Assembly (NCBI GenBank): GCA_964567265.1 | Contig: CAZMLK010000001.1 | Span: 331,723 to 395,722 of the forward strand | Length of the DNA stretch: 64,000 nt | Reading direction: 5' to 3' | From: an uncultured Candidatus Saccharibacteria bacterium | Lineage (GTDB): Bacteria > Patescibacteriota > Minisyncoccia > Phycocordibacterales > UBA12088 | Shown: one piece after another, positions 537 through 34,063 of the stretch | How positions within the stretch are numbered: the first letter of the stretch is position 1 | Layout of the letters: each line of letters opens with the position of its first letter | Made by a program: the position numbers and the translations under genes | Notes under the pieces: model-generated | Databases searched by the model: none | What the model was told of the DNA's origin: nothing | Seen by the model: only the letters and a program-made list of their open reading frames with translations

Positions 537-607
537 GGGCCTATAGTTCAGCGGTAGAATGCATCCATGGCATGGATGAGGCCGGGGTCCGACTCCCCGT
601 AGGTCCA
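537..607 (+). tRNA. tRNA-Ala (anticodon GGC), atypical T-loop
   Basis: Cloverleaf read by hand: acceptor GGGCCTA/TAGGTCC with G3:U70 Ala identity pair, anticodon loop ATGGCAT, discriminator A; T-loop reads TCCGACT (C at position 55 instead of U). Confidence 0.75.
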
Positions 608-641
608 CAGGATTCGGGAGAAGGAAAAAATTGAACCCTTT

Positions 642-673
642 GTCGGGGTGTAGTACAGGGGTAGTATACACGC
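642..673 (+). repeat. 32-nt direct duplicate of tRNA-Pro 5' half (acceptor 5' strand + D arm + 5' anticodon stem)
   Basis: GTCGGGGTGTAGTACAGGGGTAGTATACACGC occurs identically at 642-673 and 691-722; second copy is the 5' part of the intact tRNA. Confidence 0.9.
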
Positions 674-692
674 GCGGGGTTGGATTTTGTGT

Positions 693-763
693 CGGGGTGT
701 AGTACAGGGGTAGTATACACGCTTCGGGTGCGTGAGACCCGAGTTCGATTCTCGGCACCCCGA
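693..763 (+). tRNA. tRNA-Pro (anticodon CGG)
   Basis: Acceptor CGGGGTG/CACCCCG (C1:G72 as in bacterial tRNA-Pro), D stem GTAC/GTAT, anticodon loop TTCGGGT (CGG, G37), T loop TTCGATT, discriminator A. Confidence 0.85.
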
Positions 764-777
764 CACAAAATCTAACC

Positions 778-797
778 AAAAGTCCTGCGGACTTTTG
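778..797 (+). terminator. rho-independent terminator after tRNA-Pro
   Basis: AAAAGTCC-TGC-GGACTTTT perfect 8-bp stem with U-tract. Confidence 0.6.
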
Positions 798-803
798 CGG
801 CAT

Positions 804-861
804 GTCGGAAGAGAGACCTGAGTTCCATTCTCCTACGAGAGGACAGGCCGGCACTCCGACA
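804..861 (+). pseudogene. decayed tRNA-Pro-like remnant (internally deleted copy)
   Basis: GTCGGAAG..GAGACCTGAGTTCCATTCTC..insert..GGCACTCCGACA parallels tRNA-Pro acceptor 5' strand and GAGACCCGAGTTCGATTCTCGGCACCCCGACA 3' half, with point changes and a ~17-nt insertion; D and anticodon arms missing. Confidence 0.5.
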
Positions 862-874
862 AAGAGTTTAAAAT

Positions 875-948
875 GGGCGCGTAGCTCAGTTGGTTAGAGC
901 GTACGCTTCACACGCGTAAGGTCACAGGTTCGATCCCTGTCGCGCCCA
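875..948 (+). tRNA. tRNA-Val (anticodon CAC)
   Basis: GGGCGCG acceptor, D arm GCTC-AGTTGGTTA-GAGC, anticodon loop TTCACAC, T loop TTCGATC, CGCGCCC-A 3' end. Confidence 0.9.
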
Positions 949-961
949 CAGGAAAAGATAT

Positions 962-1034
962 GGGCCTGTAGCTCAGCTGGTAGAGCGCTGCATTCGCATT
1001 GCAGAGGTCAGGGGTTCGACTCCCCTCAGGTCCA
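962..1034 (+). tRNA. tRNA-Ala (anticodon CGC)
   Basis: GGGCCTG acceptor with G3:U70, anticodon loop TTCGCAT, T loop TTCGACT, CAGGTCC-A. Confidence 0.9.
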
Positions 1035-1109
1035 CCGAGCAAGGCGAGGTACTGAGGGGGGGACGGCCGGAAGGAAATCTCCCCCGGACATTTTCTGGAG
1101 AATCAGTAT

Positions 1110-5870: not shown

Positions 5871-6614
5871 ATGGAACACGGAATCCACATCGCGCTGGCA
5901 CCTGAGGTGCTTTTTCATATAGGGAGTTTGCCAGTGACGAATACCCTGGTGACCAGCTGGGCAGTCATCTTGCTTCTTGTTGGACTCGCGCTTCTCGTCG
6001 GAAGGCGGCTTTCCCTGATTCCGGGTCGCATTCAGACCCTCTTCGAAAGCGGAATCGGTTTTGTGTATGACTATGTAAGCGAGATCTTGGGTTCTGAGGC
6101 GCTTACGCGGCGTTTCTTCCCGCTCCTCATGACGCTCTTCCTCTTCATCTTTGTCTCGAACCTCCTCGAATTCACTCCTGGCATTGGAAGCATCGGATTC
6201 TTCCACGAGGGGGAATTCATCCCTCTCTTCCGGAGCGTCAATACCGACCTCAACGTGACCCTGGCGCTCACCATCATCGTCGTCACGATCATAGAGATCT
6301 CAGGAGTCATCGCGCTCGGTTTCTTCCGGTACGGAGGCAAGTTCCTTAACTTCTCGTCGCCAGTCAACTTCATCGTCGGCATTATCGAGCTCATCAGCGA
6401 GATCGCGCGCCTCATCACCTTCTCCTTCAGGCTTTTCGGGAACGTGTTCGCAGGCGAGGTGCTTATCGCAGTCGCGACCTTCTTCGTGCCCTACATCCTT
6501 CCGGTGCCGATCATGGCGTTCGAGATGTTCGTGGGCTTCGTGCAGGCAGCGATCTTCACGCTTTTAGCCCTGTTTTTTATCAAGCTCGCGGTCACGGACC
6601 CTCACGCTCACTAG
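5871..6614 (+). CDS. atpB: F0F1 ATP synthase subunit a
   Basis: SFRLFGNVFAGEVL (conserved Arg motif), multi-TM; upstream ATG 5859 lies inside the -10 element. Confidence 0.9.
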   Translation: MEHGIHIALAPEVLFHIGSLPVTNTLVTSWAVILLLVGLALLVGRRLSLIPGRIQTLFESGIGFVYDYVSEILGSEALTRRFFPLLMTLFLFIFVSNLLEFTPGIGSIGFFHEGEFIPLFRSVNTDLNVTLALTIIVVTIIEISGVIALGFFRYGGKFLNFSSPVNFIVGIIELISEIARLITFSFRLFGNVFAGEVLIAVATFFVPYILPVPIMAFEMFVGFVQAAIFTLLALFFIKLAVTDPHAH

Positions 6615-6676
6615 GGGCGGGAAGAGTGGGCACATGGCGGATTTTGTGTTACAGTACAGCCATAACTTATAAATAA

Positions 6677-6925
<249 letters not shown>

Positions 6926-30973: not shown

Positions 30974-31822
30974 ATGGAAGGAACATTCTTGGTTACAAAA
31001 GCGGACGGCTCTACTGAGCCGTTTGTGGTTGATAAGCTTCGATCCTCGCTTCAGCGCTCCGGGGCGAGTTCTGAGATGATATCGACAATCATCGAGGAGC
31101 TGGATCCGGTTTTCCAGAACGGCATCACGACAGAAGAAATTTATCGCCGCGCATTCCAGCTTTTGAAAAAAGAAGAGCGCGTCACCGCGTCGCGCTACTC
31201 ACTTCGCCGCGCGCTTTTCGGTTTCGGACCGACAGGATTTCCGTTCGAGGATTTCGTTGCCGCCATCTTCAAGGCGAAAGGGTATGAAACGAAGACGCGC
31301 GTGATGCTGAAAGGCCGGTGTGTCGAGCATGAAGTGGACGTTCTCGCGCAAAAGGATGGCAAGACTATCGGCGCTGAGCTCAAGTTCCACAACGACAGTG
31401 CAGTCAAATCGGATGTGAAGATCGCGCTCTACGTGCATGCACGCTTCGAGGACATCCGGCTCGGCTCGGAGGAGGAGCATACGCAGGCACCGGTCACTGA
31501 GCCCTGGCTCATCACGAATACAAAATTCACCGGGCAGGCGATCCAATTCGGCAAATGCGCAGGGCTTACCATGATCGGATGGAGTTATCCCGAGAAGGGC
31601 AATCTGCAGGACCTTATAGAGGAATCCGGCATCCACCCGCTCACCTGCCTCACGACACTCTCGAAGAGCGAGAAAGTCCAATTGTTGTCCCAGGATGTCG
31701 TCCTCTGCAAGGCGCTTCCTGATAATCCTGATCTGCTCCGCAAGATCGGGATGCCGGAGGCAAAGATCAAGAAAGTCCTGGAAGAGAGCACGCTCTTGTG
31801 CCAGCCAGGAGCGGCGCGGTAA
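30974..31822 (+). CDS. ATP-cone domain + restriction endonuclease-fold (Mrr-like PD-(D/E)XK) protein
   Basis: N-terminal LVTKADGSTEPFVVDKLRSSLQRSG..EEIYRRAFQLL (ATP-cone); middle FEDFVAAIFKAKGY..HEVDVLAQKDGKTIGAELKF (D..E.K nuclease core). Confidence 0.8.
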   Translation: MEGTFLVTKADGSTEPFVVDKLRSSLQRSGASSEMISTIIEELDPVFQNGITTEEIYRRAFQLLKKEERVTASRYSLRRALFGFGPTGFPFEDFVAAIFKAKGYETKTRVMLKGRCVEHEVDVLAQKDGKTIGAELKFHNDSAVKSDVKIALYVHARFEDIRLGSEEEHTQAPVTEPWLITNTKFTGQAIQFGKCAGLTMIGWSYPEKGNLQDLIEESGIHPLTCLTTLSKSEKVQLLSQDVVLCKALPDNPDLLRKIGMPEAKIKKVLEESTLLCQPGAAR

Positions 31823-32946: not shown

Positions 32947-32982
32947 CAGAACCCCTGTCTGCGAACGCGGACAGGGGTTCTG
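32947..32982 (+). terminator. terminator hairpin immediately followed by TATACT promoter
   Basis: CAGAACCCCTGTCTGCG-AAC-GCGGACAGGGGTTCTG then GTATACT. Confidence 0.7.
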
Positions 32983-32997
32983 GTATACTGCAGTCAC

Positions 32998-33795
32998 ATG
33001 GCATACGAAAAGAAGAAGGGGCCGCGGAGTGCGGACTGGAATTACGGCGGGCCGAAGTGGCGGCTGTCACGTTCGAAGATAGATGTATTCATGGAGTGCC
33101 AGCGCTGCTTCTATTTAGACAACAAGCTCGGGGTCGCGCGTCCGCGCGGACCTTCATTCACGCTGAATGTCGCCGTAGACGCGCTCCTCAAGAAGGAGTT
33201 CGACATCCTCCGGAAAAACAAGAAGCCGCATCCGCTCATGGAGAAGTATGGCGTCGATGCCATCCCGTTCACGCACAAGGAGCTGGATACCTGGCGCGAG
33301 AACTTCGAGGGCATCCGATATCTCCACGAGCCCACCGGGCTTACCGTATCAGGCGCAGTCGACGATCTCTGGGTGAATCCGAAAGGGGAGCTCCATATCG
33401 TCGATTACAAGGCGACGAGCAAGGAAGAGGGGCCATCGACCGTTGAGGCCCTCTACCCTTCGTACAAGCGCCAGATGGAAATCTACCAGTGGCTGTTCCG
33501 CCAGAACGGATTCCAGGTCTCGCCAATTGCATATTTCGTCTACGTGAACGGGAAATCAGACGCTGCCTCATTCGACGGCAAGCTTGAATTCGACACCGTC
33601 CTCATTCCGTACGAGGGCAACGATTACTGGGTTGAAGGAGTGCTTCCCGAGATCAAGGCACTTCTCGAGTCGGATGCGATCCCTCCTGCGGGAACGGGAT
33701 TCGGCGGCGGCCCGTGCGAATTCTGCGCATATCGCGAGATGGCCGGCAAGATACTCATGCAGAAGCACTATGCAGAAAAAGCAAAAAACAAGTAA
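32998..33795 (+). CDS. PD-(D/E)XK nuclease family protein, Cas4/RecB-like with flanking Cys pairs
   Basis: N-terminal SRSKIDVFMECQRCFY, core IVDYKAT (D..K), C-terminal GGGPCEFCAY. Confidence 0.8.
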   Translation: MAYEKKKGPRSADWNYGGPKWRLSRSKIDVFMECQRCFYLDNKLGVARPRGPSFTLNVAVDALLKKEFDILRKNKKPHPLMEKYGVDAIPFTHKELDTWRENFEGIRYLHEPTGLTVSGAVDDLWVNPKGELHIVDYKATSKEEGPSTVEALYPSYKRQMEIYQWLFRQNGFQVSPIAYFVYVNGKSDAASFDGKLEFDTVLIPYEGNDYWVEGVLPEIKALLESDAIPPAGTGFGGGPCEFCAYREMAGKILMQKHYAEKAKNK

Positions 33796-34063
33796 GGAAG
33801 ATTCATTCACCGAGCGCGTCCGTGCAGTGGTTCGGAAGATCCCGAGGGGAAAGACAATGACGTACGCTGCGGTGGCATCGAAAGTGGGTGCGCCCGGTGC
33901 ATCACGCGCGGTCGGCACTATCATGGCGAGGAACTTCGACCCCGACATCCCGTGCCATCGCGTCATCCGCTCCGACGGCAAGATCGGGCAGTACAACCGC
34001 GGCGGCCCGGCGAAGAAGCGCGCGCTCCTCATCGCTGAGGGAGCACTTCTGGCGGACGCATAA
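33770..34063 (+). CDS. MGMT-family protein (methylated-DNA-protein-cysteine methyltransferase DNA-binding domain only)
   Basis: IPCHRVIRSDG active-site PCHR motif, helix-turn-helix YAAVASKVGAPGASRAVG; overlaps preceding gene by 26 nt in another frame. Confidence 0.8.
   Translation: MQKKQKTSKEDSFTERVRAVVRKIPRGKTMTYAAVASKVGAPGASRAVGTIMARNFDPDIPCHRVIRSDGKIGQYNRGGPAKKRALLIAEGALLADA

What the first reader, a model, noticed from the sequence alone, without database searches (positions are those of the whole stretch)
32998..34063. Cas4/RecB-like PD-(D/E)XK nuclease with Cys pairs, translationally overlapping an MGMT DNA-binding-domain protein
The 265-aa nuclease has CxxC near the N-terminus, a DYK core and CxxC at the C-terminus. 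It overlaps by 26 nt with a 97-aa protein that has the PCHR alkyl-acceptor motif but no N-terminal Ogt domain. A tight nuclease + alkyl-lesion-binding pair with its own promoter and preceding terminator suggests either a dedicated alkylation-damage incision pathway or a DNA-modification-sensing defence module.
Basis: partly seen in the sequence, partly recalled or inferred. Interest (0 to 1): 0.6.

Follow-up and report, generated by a model that had tools for sequence, protein, structure and literature searches.

The report
Cas4-like nuclease plus minimal alkyltransferase pair
Two real, overlapping DNA-maintenance genes, an unusual Cas4-like nuclease and a half-size O6-alkylguanine repair enzyme, sit side by side in most relatives of this tiny-genome bacterium, but nothing shows they work as one machine.

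Summary
Window 32998-33795 encodes a 265-aa PD-(D/E)XK nuclease with CxxC...DYK...CxxC. Window 33770-34063 encodes a 97-aa protein that is only the C-terminal domain of an O6-alkylguanine alkyltransferase (AGT), with PCHR. The genes overlap by 26 nt, and no later start keeps the conserved first helix.

Both families are very large in Patescibacteria (Paceibacteria). The pair is linked in both directions: the mini-AGT follows the nuclease in 47 of 80 species genomes, and the nuclease precedes the mini-AGT in 44-46 of 68 informative metagenome loci.

- The pair occurs only inside one inherited housekeeping block (YceG/MltG, MnmA, ATP-cone/Mrr, NUC, MGMT, UDG, HD, AlaRS).
- Every gene pair in that block is equally tightly packed.
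- Wherever the nuclease has moved, the AGT is absent.
- The only fusion found is a frameshift artefact.

The most likely reading is two independent, co-transcribed genome-maintenance enzymes. One is a Cas4/AddB-fold nuclease with a family-wide 2+2 cysteine metal site instead of the usual 1+3. The other is a minimal but catalytically complete suicide alkyltransferase.

A physical nuclease-AGT partnership, like the known AGT-EndoV fusions, is not excluded (about 0.2). A defence module is unlikely at this locus.

The parts
32947..32982 (+). Strong RNA hairpin (16-bp stem, 4-nt loop) between the MgtC stop and the nuclease start. It looks like a terminator but has no U-tract.
   Evidence: -37.6 kcal/mol, z=-6.27, and 0 of 200 shuffles fold as well. 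The consensus terminator scan did not call it.
32981..32989 (+). TGGTATACT, an extended -10-like element 8 nt upstream of the nuclease ATG. No Shine-Dalgarno sequence lies between them, so the mRNA may be leaderless (inference only).
   Evidence: Read directly from the sequence. The two-hexamer promoter scan did not report it.
32998..33795 (+). NUC: a 265-aa stand-alone Cas4/AddB-fold PD-(D/E)XK nuclease. It has catalytic D122/D123, D136-x-K138 and Q159-x3-Y163, and a four-Cys metal site arranged 2+2 (C34, C37, C240, C243).
   Evidence: The AF2 model has pLDDT 86 and pTM 0.84. The best Foldseek hits are Cas4, AdnA/B nuclease, RecE, Exo5, MGME1 and lambda exonuclease.
33770..33795 (+). The 26-nt overlap between the end of the nuclease gene and the start of the mini-AGT gene, in different reading frames.
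   Evidence: The same 26-nt overlap occurs in L005. Across 43 adjacent pairs the median spacing is -4 nt.
33770..34063 (+). Mini-AGT: a 97-aa single-domain O6-alkylguanine-DNA alkyltransferase consisting of the C-terminal domain only. It has PCHR (C62) and conserved Y32, R46, N55, H63, Y75 and E90.
   Evidence: The AF2 model has pLDDT 85. It superposes on AGT C-domains at 1.2-2.4 A over 81-88 residues.
30974..31822 (+). Context gene: a 282-aa ATP-cone + Mrr_cat (PD-(D/E)XK-type) protein. It is a conserved upstream neighbour of the nuclease, present in 58 of 80 related loci and often directly adjacent.

Best explanation
These are two separate genome-maintenance enzymes, probably transcribed together, in a conserved housekeeping block of a Paceibacteria (CPR/Patescibacteria) chromosome.

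**The nuclease.**
- It is an active, metal-dependent RecB/Cas4-fold nuclease.
- Four invariant cysteines tie its N-terminal helix to its C-terminal helix, as the iron-sulfur 'staple' does in AddB, Cas4, Dna2 and Exo5. Here the ligands are arranged 2+2, so the metal could be Fe-S or zinc.
- By analogy with its structural relatives it most likely threads and cuts free 5' ends, flaps or single-stranded DNA during repair or recombination.
- About 30-45% of family members carry a C-terminal ...[ST]LF or ...TLGI tail that looks like a sliding-clamp-binding motif. The window copy does not.

**The mini-AGT.**
- It is a minimal suicide alkyltransferase. It binds the minor groove through its helix-turn-helix, flips out O6-alkylguanine and moves the alkyl group onto Cys62 (PCHR). 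It works without the N-terminal domain that canonical AGTs have.

**Why they are adjacent.**
- The adjacency and overlap reflect an ancestral operon-like arrangement in very compact genomes: NUC, then MGMT, then usually a uracil-DNA glycosylase and an HD_4 hydrolase. It is not an obligatory partnership.

**Shown and inferred.**
- Shown: domains, conserved catalytic residues, folds, synteny and spacing.
- Inferred: substrates, metal, co-transcription and independence of the two activities.
For: **Nuclease identity.**
- Domain matches are above threshold.
- The catalytic residues and four Cys are invariant in 25 close homologues and in 108 of 108 full-length cluster representatives.
- The fold matches Cas4, AdnAB, RecE, Exo5, MGME1 and lambda exonuclease.

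**Mini-AGT identity.**
- PCHR is kept in 46 of 46 complete locus copies and in 120 of 120 database homologues.
- Y32, R46, N55, H63, Y75 and E90 are invariant.
- These residues align with the functional residues of M. tuberculosis OGT and of Ada.
- The model superposes on AGT C-domains with 40-48% identity, against 34-36% for ATLs.

**Housekeeping context.**
- The window carries YceG, MnmA, ATP-cone/Mrr, DUF7282, MgtC, NUC, MGMT, an M13 peptidase and AlaRS.
- The same order recurs across 80 species genomes.
- G+C content equals that of the flanks.

**Repair theme of the neighbourhood.**
- UDG superfamily genes and an HD_4 gene lie downstream in many loci.
- Natural NUC-NUDIX and NUC-HD_4 fusions exist.
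- A Nudix gene overlaps the mini-AGT in L087 and L133.

**Independence of the two genes.**
- The nuclease occurs without the AGT in 33 of 80 loci and in all rearranged contexts.
- The mini-AGT occurs without the nuclease in about 22 of 68 loci, beside varied genes.
- There is no real fusion.
- Tight spacing is generic to the block.

**Literature.**
- The AGT N-domain is not strictly required for activity (review PMC10779285).
- Solo Cas4-like genes are over-represented in CPR, and their function is uncharacterised (PMC5704561).
Against: - Reciprocal adjacency of 60-65% with frequent overlap (22 of 43 pairs) is also what a functional pair would show.
- Canonical human AGT needs its N-domain for stability and full activity (my knowledge; PMC10779285 says it stabilises DNA binding and caps the pocket). 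A stand-alone C-domain may therefore need a partner, and the nuclease is the obvious candidate.
- Known AGT-C and ATL fusions to the nuclease EndoV show that nuclease-alkyltransferase coupling has evolved before (PMC10779285).
- No activity, metal content, transcript or interaction has been measured.
- Both locus samples are the best 80 of about 590 or more hits, so they are biased towards close relatives.
Confidence: 0.6

Rival explanations
1. The two proteins form a two-component alkylation-repair unit, a non-covalent analogue of the archaeal AGT-EndoV and ATL-EndoV fusions. The nuclease binds the mini-AGT and stands in for the missing N-terminal domain.
For: - The genes are adjacent in 47 of 80 nuclease-centred loci and in 44-46 of 68 informative mini-AGT-centred loci.
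- Median spacing is -4 nt and 22 of 43 pairs overlap.
- The AGT lacks the N-domain that normally caps the active-site pocket (PMC10779285).
- AGT-C and ATL fusions to EndoV set a precedent (PMC10779285).
- Some nuclease family members have clamp-binding-like tails, which would place them at replication or repair sites.
Against: - The pair is found only inside one inherited syntenic block.
- The nuclease loses the AGT whenever its context changes.
- Unrelated neighbours in the block are spaced just as tightly.
- The only fusion is a frameshift artefact.
- The full catalytic set argues for simple direct reversal.
- Cas4-, AddB- and Exo5-type enzymes act on DNA ends or single-stranded DNA, not at internal base lesions (my knowledge).
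- ATLs and the mini-AGTs beside other genes manage without this nuclease.
Confidence: 0.2
2. The locus is an anti-phage or DNA-modification-sensing defence module. The nuclease would degrade foreign or modified DNA, with the AGT-like protein (and perhaps the upstream Mrr-like protein) acting as the modification sensor.
For: - In IMG/VR contigs, homologues 41-57% identical to the nuclease lie directly next to varied defence genes. These include type I, III and IIG restriction-modification systems, GmrSD, a ThsB-like TIR, a SMODS cyclase, and OLD-like, HerA, UvrD and PIF1 helicases.
- A GYF-TIR-nuclease fusion exists.
- An Mrr_cat-domain protein is a conserved upstream neighbour.
- PMC5704561 suggests a defence or repair role for solo Cas4.
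Against: - None of those defence-context loci carries the mini-AGT.
- The IMG/VR collection is selected for sequence that resembles mobile elements, so that sample is biased.
- In the window and in 80 species genomes the pair sits among YceG, MnmA and AlaRS, is inherited vertically at 55-75% identity, and has the same G+C as its flanks.
- PADLOC gives only weak Cas4 matches for the nuclease and nothing for the AGT.
- Genes inserted into the canonical block are miscellaneous, not defence genes.
Confidence: 0.04
3. The 97-aa protein acts like an alkyltransferase-like (ATL) damage sensor. It binds O6-alkylguanine without productive transfer and hands the lesion to excision repair. The neighbouring nuclease or UvrABC would then do the cutting.
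For: - It has the single-domain architecture and size of ATLs. The model covers whole ATL structures (TM normalised to the target 0.67-0.73 for 3gva and 2kif).
- The loop between N55 and PCHR is one residue shorter than in OGT and Ada.
Against: - The defining ATL feature, replacement of the acceptor Cys by Trp or Ala, is absent. PCHR is invariant in 166 of 166 sequences checked.
- The His and Glu of the catalytic network are invariant too.
- Identity is higher to true AGTs (40-48%) than to ATLs (34-36%).
Confidence: 0.06

Closest known systems
Cas4 / AddB / Dna2 / Exo5 'iron-staple' RecB-family nucleases, including solo-Cas4 of CPR and DPANN (PMC5704561, PMC3378879, PMC12501428)
   Same: - It shares the PD-(D/E)XK core, with D...D-x-K and QxxxY motifs.
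- An N-terminal ...S-x-S-x-I...C-P-R-x-F-Y-L... helix is tied to a C-terminal Cys-containing helix by four cysteines.
- The fold matches Cas4, AdnAB and Exo5.
- It is stand-alone, sits outside any CRISPR locus, and is inherited vertically in small genomes.
   Different: - The cysteines are arranged 2+2 (C-x2-C ... C-x2-C) across the whole family, not 1+3 (C ... C-x2-C-x5-C).
- It scores below the curated Cas4 thresholds.
- TM-scores to solved structures are only 0.35-0.46.
- An extra, highly conserved helix (N57, D61, K65, E67, D69, R72) has no assigned role.
- There are no cas genes nearby.
O6-alkylguanine-DNA alkyltransferases (Ogt, Ada-C, human MGMT, M. tuberculosis OGT)
   Same: - It has a C-terminal domain with a helix-turn-helix, an Arg finger, an Asn hinge and the PCHR acceptor.
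- The Tyr, His and Glu catalytic residues are conserved.
- It is 40-48% identical to solved AGT C-domains and superposes at 1.2-2.4 A rmsd.
   Different: - It has no N-terminal domain at all (97 aa against about 165-207 aa).
- The Asn-to-Cys loop is one residue shorter.
Alkyltransferase-like proteins (S. pombe Atl1, E. coli YbaZ, V. parahaemolyticus vpAtl)
   Same: It has the same single-domain architecture and size, and the same fold.
   Different: ATLs have lost the acceptor cysteine and signal to nucleotide excision repair. This protein keeps Cys, His and Glu.
AGT-EndoV (Ferroplasma acidarmanus) and ATL-EndoV fusions; C. elegans AGT-2 (PMC10779285)
   Same: An AGT C-domain without the normal N-domain is associated with a nuclease or another DNA-binding module.
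   Different: - Here the two are separate polypeptides, and no genuine fusion was found.
- The nuclease is Cas4-like, not EndoV.
- Cooperation between them is unproven.

Membership tests
PD-(D/E)XK nuclease superfamily, PDDEXK_1 (PF12705) | The profile match exceeds the curated cut-off. | tested here: met
   46 bits against a cut-off of 22, E=8.4e-12.
PD-(D/E)XK nuclease superfamily, PDDEXK_1 (PF12705) | RecB-type catalytic motifs are present: an acidic residue, D-x-K and QxxxY. | tested here: met
   D122/D123, D136, K138, Q159 and Y163 are invariant in A1 and in at least 141 of 148 cluster representatives.
Cas4 (CRISPR-associated; PF01930 / TIGR00372) | The match reaches the curated family score. 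| tested here: not met
   PF01930 scores 14.8 bits against 22.7. TIGR00372 scores 22.2 against 65. PADLOC Cas4 models match only weakly, at E=1e-7 or worse.
Cas4 (CRISPR-associated; PF01930 / TIGR00372) | Four cysteines are arranged C...C-x2-C-x5-C (one N-terminal, three C-terminal) and bind an Fe-S cluster. | tested here: not met
   Four invariant Cys are present but arranged 2+2 (C34, C37, C240, C243). The x5 position (249) is never Cys. Metal content cannot be tested here.
Cas4 (CRISPR-associated; PF01930 / TIGR00372) | The gene is encoded next to cas1/cas2 or a CRISPR array. | tested here: not met
   The neighbours are MgtC, DUF7282, ATP-cone/Mrr, MGMT and an M13 peptidase. No cas genes appear in the 80 related loci.
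O6-alkylguanine-DNA alkyltransferase (AGT/Ogt/MGMT) | The DNA_binding_1 (PF01035) or TIGR00589 domain scores above its cut-off. | tested here: met
   100 bits against 27, and 73.5 bits against 46.4.
O6-alkylguanine-DNA alkyltransferase (AGT/Ogt/MGMT) | The PCHR acceptor cysteine is present, together with the conserved Tyr, Arg finger, Asn hinge, His, Tyr and Glu. | tested here: met
   P61-C62-H63-R64, Y32, R46, N55, Y75 and E90 are invariant. They align to M. tuberculosis OGT and to Ada. The mapping to human Y114, R128, N137, C145, H146, Y158 and E172 comes from my own knowledge.
O6-alkylguanine-DNA alkyltransferase (AGT/Ogt/MGMT) | The protein has two domains, with an N-terminal ribonuclease-like domain. 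| tested here: not met
   The protein is 97 aa and the domain spans residues 13-91, with no other Pfam hit. Family members are 84-113 aa long.
O6-alkylguanine-DNA alkyltransferase (AGT/Ogt/MGMT) | The protein carries out stoichiometric alkyl transfer from O6-alkylguanine to its cysteine. | not testable with these tools
   This needs a biochemical assay.
Alkyltransferase-like (ATL) proteins | The protein consists of a single AGT-C-like domain. | tested here: met
   It is 97 aa, and the model covers whole ATL structures (TM normalised to the target 0.67-0.73).
Alkyltransferase-like (ATL) proteins | The acceptor Cys is replaced (PWHR or PAHR), so there is no transferase activity. | tested here: not met
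   PCHR is kept in 46 of 46 locus copies and 120 of 120 database homologues.
AGT/ATL-nuclease fusion proteins (AGTendoV type) | The alkyltransferase domain and the nuclease lie in one polypeptide. | tested here: not met
   There is no MGMT domain in the 150 nuclease representatives. A search with the concatenated query found only P0391, whose nuclease C-terminus is frameshifted.
Anti-phage defence system (PADLOC catalogue / defence island) | Components match known defence models, and the locus sits in a variable, horizontally mobile context. | tested here: not met
   PADLOC gives weak Cas4 hits only and none for the AGT. The context is conserved and housekeeping, with flank-like G+C. Some distant family members do lie in defence-rich contexts, but without the AGT.

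The most novel reading that the evidence does not exclude
The Cas4-like nuclease and the N-domain-less alkyltransferase form a complex. This would be a split, bacterial counterpart of AGT-EndoV. In it, the nuclease scaffolds the minimal AGT, and the AGT's lesion recognition directs strand cutting or resection at alkylation damage that cannot be reversed. That would give CPR bacteria a compact alkylation-repair route not described in any organism.
Probability: 0.15. Interest if true: 0.7.

Novelty: new variant of a known kind. Interest (0 to 1): 0.35.

Why it matters
CPR/Patescibacteria have tiny genomes and pared-down repair toolkits, so the maintenance genes they keep are informative. Three things at this locus are worth an experiment:

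- **A stand-alone AGT C-domain with a complete catalytic set.** It is about half the size of any characterised alkyltransferase and occurs in thousands of lineages. If it is active alone it would define the minimal alkyltransferase, and it could serve as a very small SNAP-tag-like scaffold.
- **A very large, uncharacterised branch of Cas4/AddB-like nucleases.** Its metal-site ligands have moved from 1+3 to 2+2, which raises the question of whether it binds Fe-S or zinc. Many members carry clamp-binding-like tails.
- **A recurring neighbourhood of genome-hygiene genes** (nuclease, AGT, UDG, HD_4, Nudix). This may be the core repair operon of these organisms.

The stronger claim, a nuclease-AGT machine, would be new biology, but the present evidence does not favour it.

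Tried and rejected
- **Clustering error, corrected.** ORF clustering first suggested MGMT in 54 of 80 loci and a pair kept in rearranged contexts (L015, L024). An hmmsearch check showed that 8 of those ORFs were spurious alternative-frame ORFs inside the nuclease gene. The true count is 46-47 of 80, and no rearranged locus keeps the pair.
- **Overlap as evidence of coupling.** Rejected after the control showing that all neighbours in the block are packed within a few nucleotides.
- **Fusion search.** There was no MGMT domain in the 150 nuclease representatives. A search with the concatenated query gave only P0391, a frameshifted singleton.
- **Solved structures.** A sequence search of the PDB with the nuclease profile found nothing meaningful.
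- **Source contig.** The look-up for the 100%-identical AGT (P0121) failed, so the organism is inferred only from homologues named Paceibacterota, Parcubacteria or Kaiserbacteria.
- **Cysteine geometry.** Model coordinates are not exposed, so I could not measure whether the four Cys converge.
- **Literature.** Searches found no paper on this pair or on stand-alone Cys-bearing AGT C-domains.
- **Hotspot idea.** I considered that the region upstream of the nuclease is a defence-island hotspot in the canonical block. The inserted genes there are miscellaneous (SLOG, NADAR, SAICAR synthetase), so this is not supported.
Full report
**1. What is in the sequence**

The ORF list and the raw sequence show two genes on the + strand. 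One is an ATG-initiated ORF at 32998-33795 (265 aa). The other, in a different frame, runs from an ATG at 33770 to a stop at 34063 (97 aa). They overlap by 26 nt.

- The nuclease (NUC) matches Pfam PDDEXK_1 at E=8.4e-12 (46 bits, cut-off 22). Its Cas4 match is below threshold.
- The 97-aa protein matches the MGMT DNA_binding_1 domain at E=6.8e-29 over residues 13-91 and nothing else. NCBIfam agrees.
- The overlap is forced. No start codon lies between 33770 and the invariant F13, so any product that keeps the conserved first helix starts inside the NUC ORF. The nearest species-level relative (L005) also overlaps by 26 nt.

Between the MgtC stop and the NUC start lies a 16-bp hairpin at 32947-32982 (-37.6 kcal/mol, z=-6.3). 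It has no U-tract. The consensus scans called neither a terminator nor a promoter there. By eye, TGGTATACT at 32981-32989 looks like an extended -10 element, 8 nt before the ATG, with no Shine-Dalgarno sequence. A leaderless transcript is possible but unproven.

**2. The two proteins**

*NUC.* This is a very large family.
- The word-index search saturated at 8000 hits. These were mostly unnamed, or named 'PD-(D/E)XK nuclease family protein' or 'Cas4 (RecB family)', and came from Paceibacterota, Parcubacteria, Kaiserbacteria and Patescibacteria metagenome-assembled genomes.
- The exhaustive representative search found 2555 clusters at 50% identity with E<=1e-3, of which 417 had E<=1e-30.
- The catalytic residues D122/D123, D136, K138, Q159 and Y163 are invariant.
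- Four cysteines are invariant in a 2+2 arrangement. All 108 full-length representatives were 'CCCC', and Cys never occupied the x5 position. AddB, Dna2 and Cas4 instead have one N-terminal and three C-terminal ligands (PMC3378879, PMC5704561).
- A second set of family-specific invariant residues (N57, D61, K65, E67, D69, R72) lies on a helix with no assigned role.
- The AF2 model is confident (pLDDT 86, pTM 0.84). Its best PDB matches are Cas4, AdnA/AdnB nuclease domains, RecE, Exo5, MGME1, lambda exonuclease and ACE1, at TM-scores of only 0.35-0.46.
- No solved structure is detectable by sequence.

NUC is therefore a divergent branch of the Cas4/AddB-fold, end-processing nucleases. It is not a Cas4 by the curated criteria.

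*Mini-AGT.* The family members are 84-113 aa long and abundant in the same organisms.
- PCHR is present in 46 of 46 complete locus copies and in 120 of 120 database homologues.
- Y32, R46, N55, H63, Y75 and E90 are invariant. They align with the functional residues of M. tuberculosis OGT and of Ada.
- The only difference seen is a loop one residue shorter between the Asn hinge and PCHR.
- The model (pLDDT 85) superposes on AGT C-domains at 1.2-2.4 A over 81-88 residues, with 40-48% identity. It covers whole ATL structures at 34-36% identity.

The protein thus has the architecture of an ATL but the chemistry of a true alkyltransferase. The review PMC10779285 states that the N-domain is not strictly required. 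It cites AGT-C fusions to EndoV and to a histone-like domain, but it describes no stand-alone Cys-bearing C-domains.

**3. Are the genes linked?**

- *From the nuclease side.* I took 80 species-representative loci, the best of at least 591 hits. Of these, 47 carry the mini-AGT downstream on the same strand, 43 of them within 200 nt.
- *From the AGT side.* I took 80 metagenome loci, the best of at least 573 hits. Of the 68 with at least 300 bp upstream, 44 have the nuclease immediately upstream and 46 have it within 500 nt.
- *Spacing.* The median is -4 nt. Of 43 pairs, 22 overlap and 39 are separated by 30 nt or less.

**4. Controls that limit what the linkage means**

a) *One inherited block.* The whole neighbourhood is conserved:
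- The order is: a 433-aa membrane protein, YceG/MltG, MnmA, (a small ORF), ATP-cone+Mrr_cat, (DUF7282), (MgtC), NUC, (MGMT), UDG family 1 or 4, HD_4, and on to AlaRS. The window has this order, with an M13 peptidase in place of UDG and HD.
- Functionally unrelated neighbours such as YceG and MnmA are conserved about as often as MGMT is.
- Of the 61 NUC-MGMT pairs with enough upstream sequence to judge, all lie in this block: 59 scored directly and 2 are canonical with an insertion.

b) *My own error, corrected.* An early clustering result suggested the pair survives in rearranged contexts (L015, L024). That was wrong. Those 'MGMT' ORFs are alternative-frame ORFs inside the nuclease gene. In every rearranged context the nuclease has other neighbours, such as a pyrimidine nucleotidase, a P-type ATPase, SerRS or a methyltransferase, and no AGT.

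c) *Tight packing is generic.* Median gaps are 7 nt for MnmA to ATP-cone/Mrr, about 3 nt for ATP-cone/Mrr to NUC, and 2-5 nt for MGMT to UDG.

d) *No real fusion.* The 150 nuclease representatives contain no MGMT domain. A search with the concatenated NUC+MGMT query found only P0391, a singleton on a 1.6-kb contig. Its nuclease C-terminus, including the CxxC, is replaced by frameshifted sequence.

e) *The mini-AGT occurs elsewhere.* When it is not beside the nuclease it sits next to varied genes, such as Nudix (twice) and SMC (twice).

The linkage can be explained by a single ancestral juxtaposition retained in compact, slowly rearranging genomes. It does not by itself show cooperation.

**5. 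What the neighbourhood does suggest**

The genes that recur around the nuclease are genome-hygiene enzymes: the AGT, UDG-superfamily glycosylases and an HD_4 hydrolase.
- Natural NUC-NUDIX and NUC-HD_4 fusions exist.
- The nuclease is followed directly by UDG in about 8 loci that lack the AGT.
- About 30% of close homologues and 34 of 78 species loci end in a Lys-rich linker followed by ...[ST]LF or ...TLGI/SLGL. I read this as a beta-clamp-binding motif, from my own knowledge of the QL[SD]LF and QLxLxL consensus; it is untested. The window copy has the short tail ...AEKAKNK.

Together these points favour a repair- or replication-associated, end- or flap-processing nuclease.

**6. The defence alternative**

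- IMG/VR contigs hold 14 relatives, 35-57% identical to NUC.
- In about ten of them, homologues 41-57% identical lie directly next to a changing cast of defence genes. These include type I, III and IIG restriction-modification systems, GmrSD, a ThsB-like TIR, a SMODS/AGS-C cyclase, an OLD-like ATPase, and HerA, UvrD and PIF1 helicases.
- A GYF-TIR-nuclease fusion exists.
- Other distant members lie in phage-like contigs, and the family matches phrog_31195.

This fits the earlier remark that solo Cas4-like genes may serve defence or repair (PMC5704561). Three things limit its relevance here:
- None of these loci has the AGT.
- The IMG/VR collection is selected for sequence that resembles mobile elements.
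- In the window, the context, the base composition and PADLOC do not look like a defence island.

**7. Verdict**

- *Best explanation (0.6).* Two independent, probably co-transcribed maintenance enzymes. One is a Cas4/AddB-fold nuclease with a relocated four-Cys metal site. The other is a minimal, catalytically complete suicide alkyltransferase. They sit together in an ancestral repair-flavoured operon.
- *Main rival (0.2).* A non-covalent nuclease-AGT unit analogous to AGT-EndoV, with the nuclease compensating for the missing N-domain.
- *Minor rivals.* An ATL-like sensor (0.06) and a defence module (0.04).

On novelty, both proteins are variants of known kinds, and databases already label them generically. 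The 2+2 Cys pattern, the stand-alone active-site-bearing AGT C-domain and the conserved pairing do not appear in the papers I could search. Interest is moderate.

Noticed in passing
NUC homologues P0018, P0023, P0040, P0061 and others; loci L003, L004, L011, L020, L026, L040 and others (C-termini): About 30% of close homologues and 34 of 78 species loci end in a Lys-rich low-complexity linker followed by ...[ST]LF(x) or ...TLGI/SLGL. This resembles a beta-sliding-clamp-binding motif. The window nuclease has the short tail ...AEKAKNK instead.
   Followed up: partly
window 30974-31822 (+): A 282-aa protein with an ATP-cone, an Mrr_cat restriction-endonuclease-like domain and a weak AF1548-like C-terminal match. 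It is a conserved upstream neighbour of the nuclease in 58 of 80 related loci and is often directly adjacent. Its function is unknown, and it is a second PD-(D/E)XK-type protein in the block.
   Followed up: partly
L162-L171 (IMG/VR contigs), nuclease at about 5938-6690 in each: Homologues 48-57% identical to the window nuclease lie immediately next to highly variable defence genes. These include type I, III and IIG restriction-modification systems, GmrSD, a ThsB-like TIR, SMODS/AGS-C, an OLD-like ATPase, and HerA, UvrD and PIF1 helicases. None has the mini-AGT. The nuclease may be an anchor gene beside a defence hotspot, or an accessory to defence, in those lineages.
   Followed up: partly
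P0244, P0259, P0284, P0291, P0242 (representative library): Natural fusions of the nuclease family include NUC-NUDIX, NUC-HD_4, GYF-TIR_2-NUC and DUF2779-NUC. There is also a 749-aa protein with a long low-complexity N-terminus and two tandem nuclease copies.
   Followed up: partly
L004 6834-7292 (+): A NADAR-domain gene is inserted between the nuclease and the mini-AGT in one species. SLOG-cluster4 and other genes are inserted upstream of the nuclease in the same locus.
   Followed up: no
L087 4592-5029 and L133 4508-5032: Where the mini-AGT is not next to the nuclease, two loci have a Nudix hydrolase gene overlapping its start. This echoes the NUC-NUDIX fusion.
   Followed up: no
window 32947-32989: A very stable hairpin without a U-tract overlaps an extended -10-like TGGTATACT that lies 8 nt before the nuclease ATG, and there is no Shine-Dalgarno sequence. 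This could be a combined terminator and leaderless-promoter arrangement.
   Followed up: partly
window 537-1036 (+): A cluster of four tRNA genes: Ala-GGC, Pro-CGG, Val-CAC and Ala-CGC.
   Followed up: no
window 33584-34063 (+) and the equivalent alternative-frame ORFs in L007, L015, L018, L021, L024, L039, L043, L070: Long alternative-frame ORFs inside the 3' half of the nuclease gene are conserved enough to cluster with the real mini-AGT ORFs by BLASTP. They inflated the synteny counts until checked with an HMM, which is a caution for ORF-clustering pipelines on high-GC CPR genomes.
   Followed up: yes
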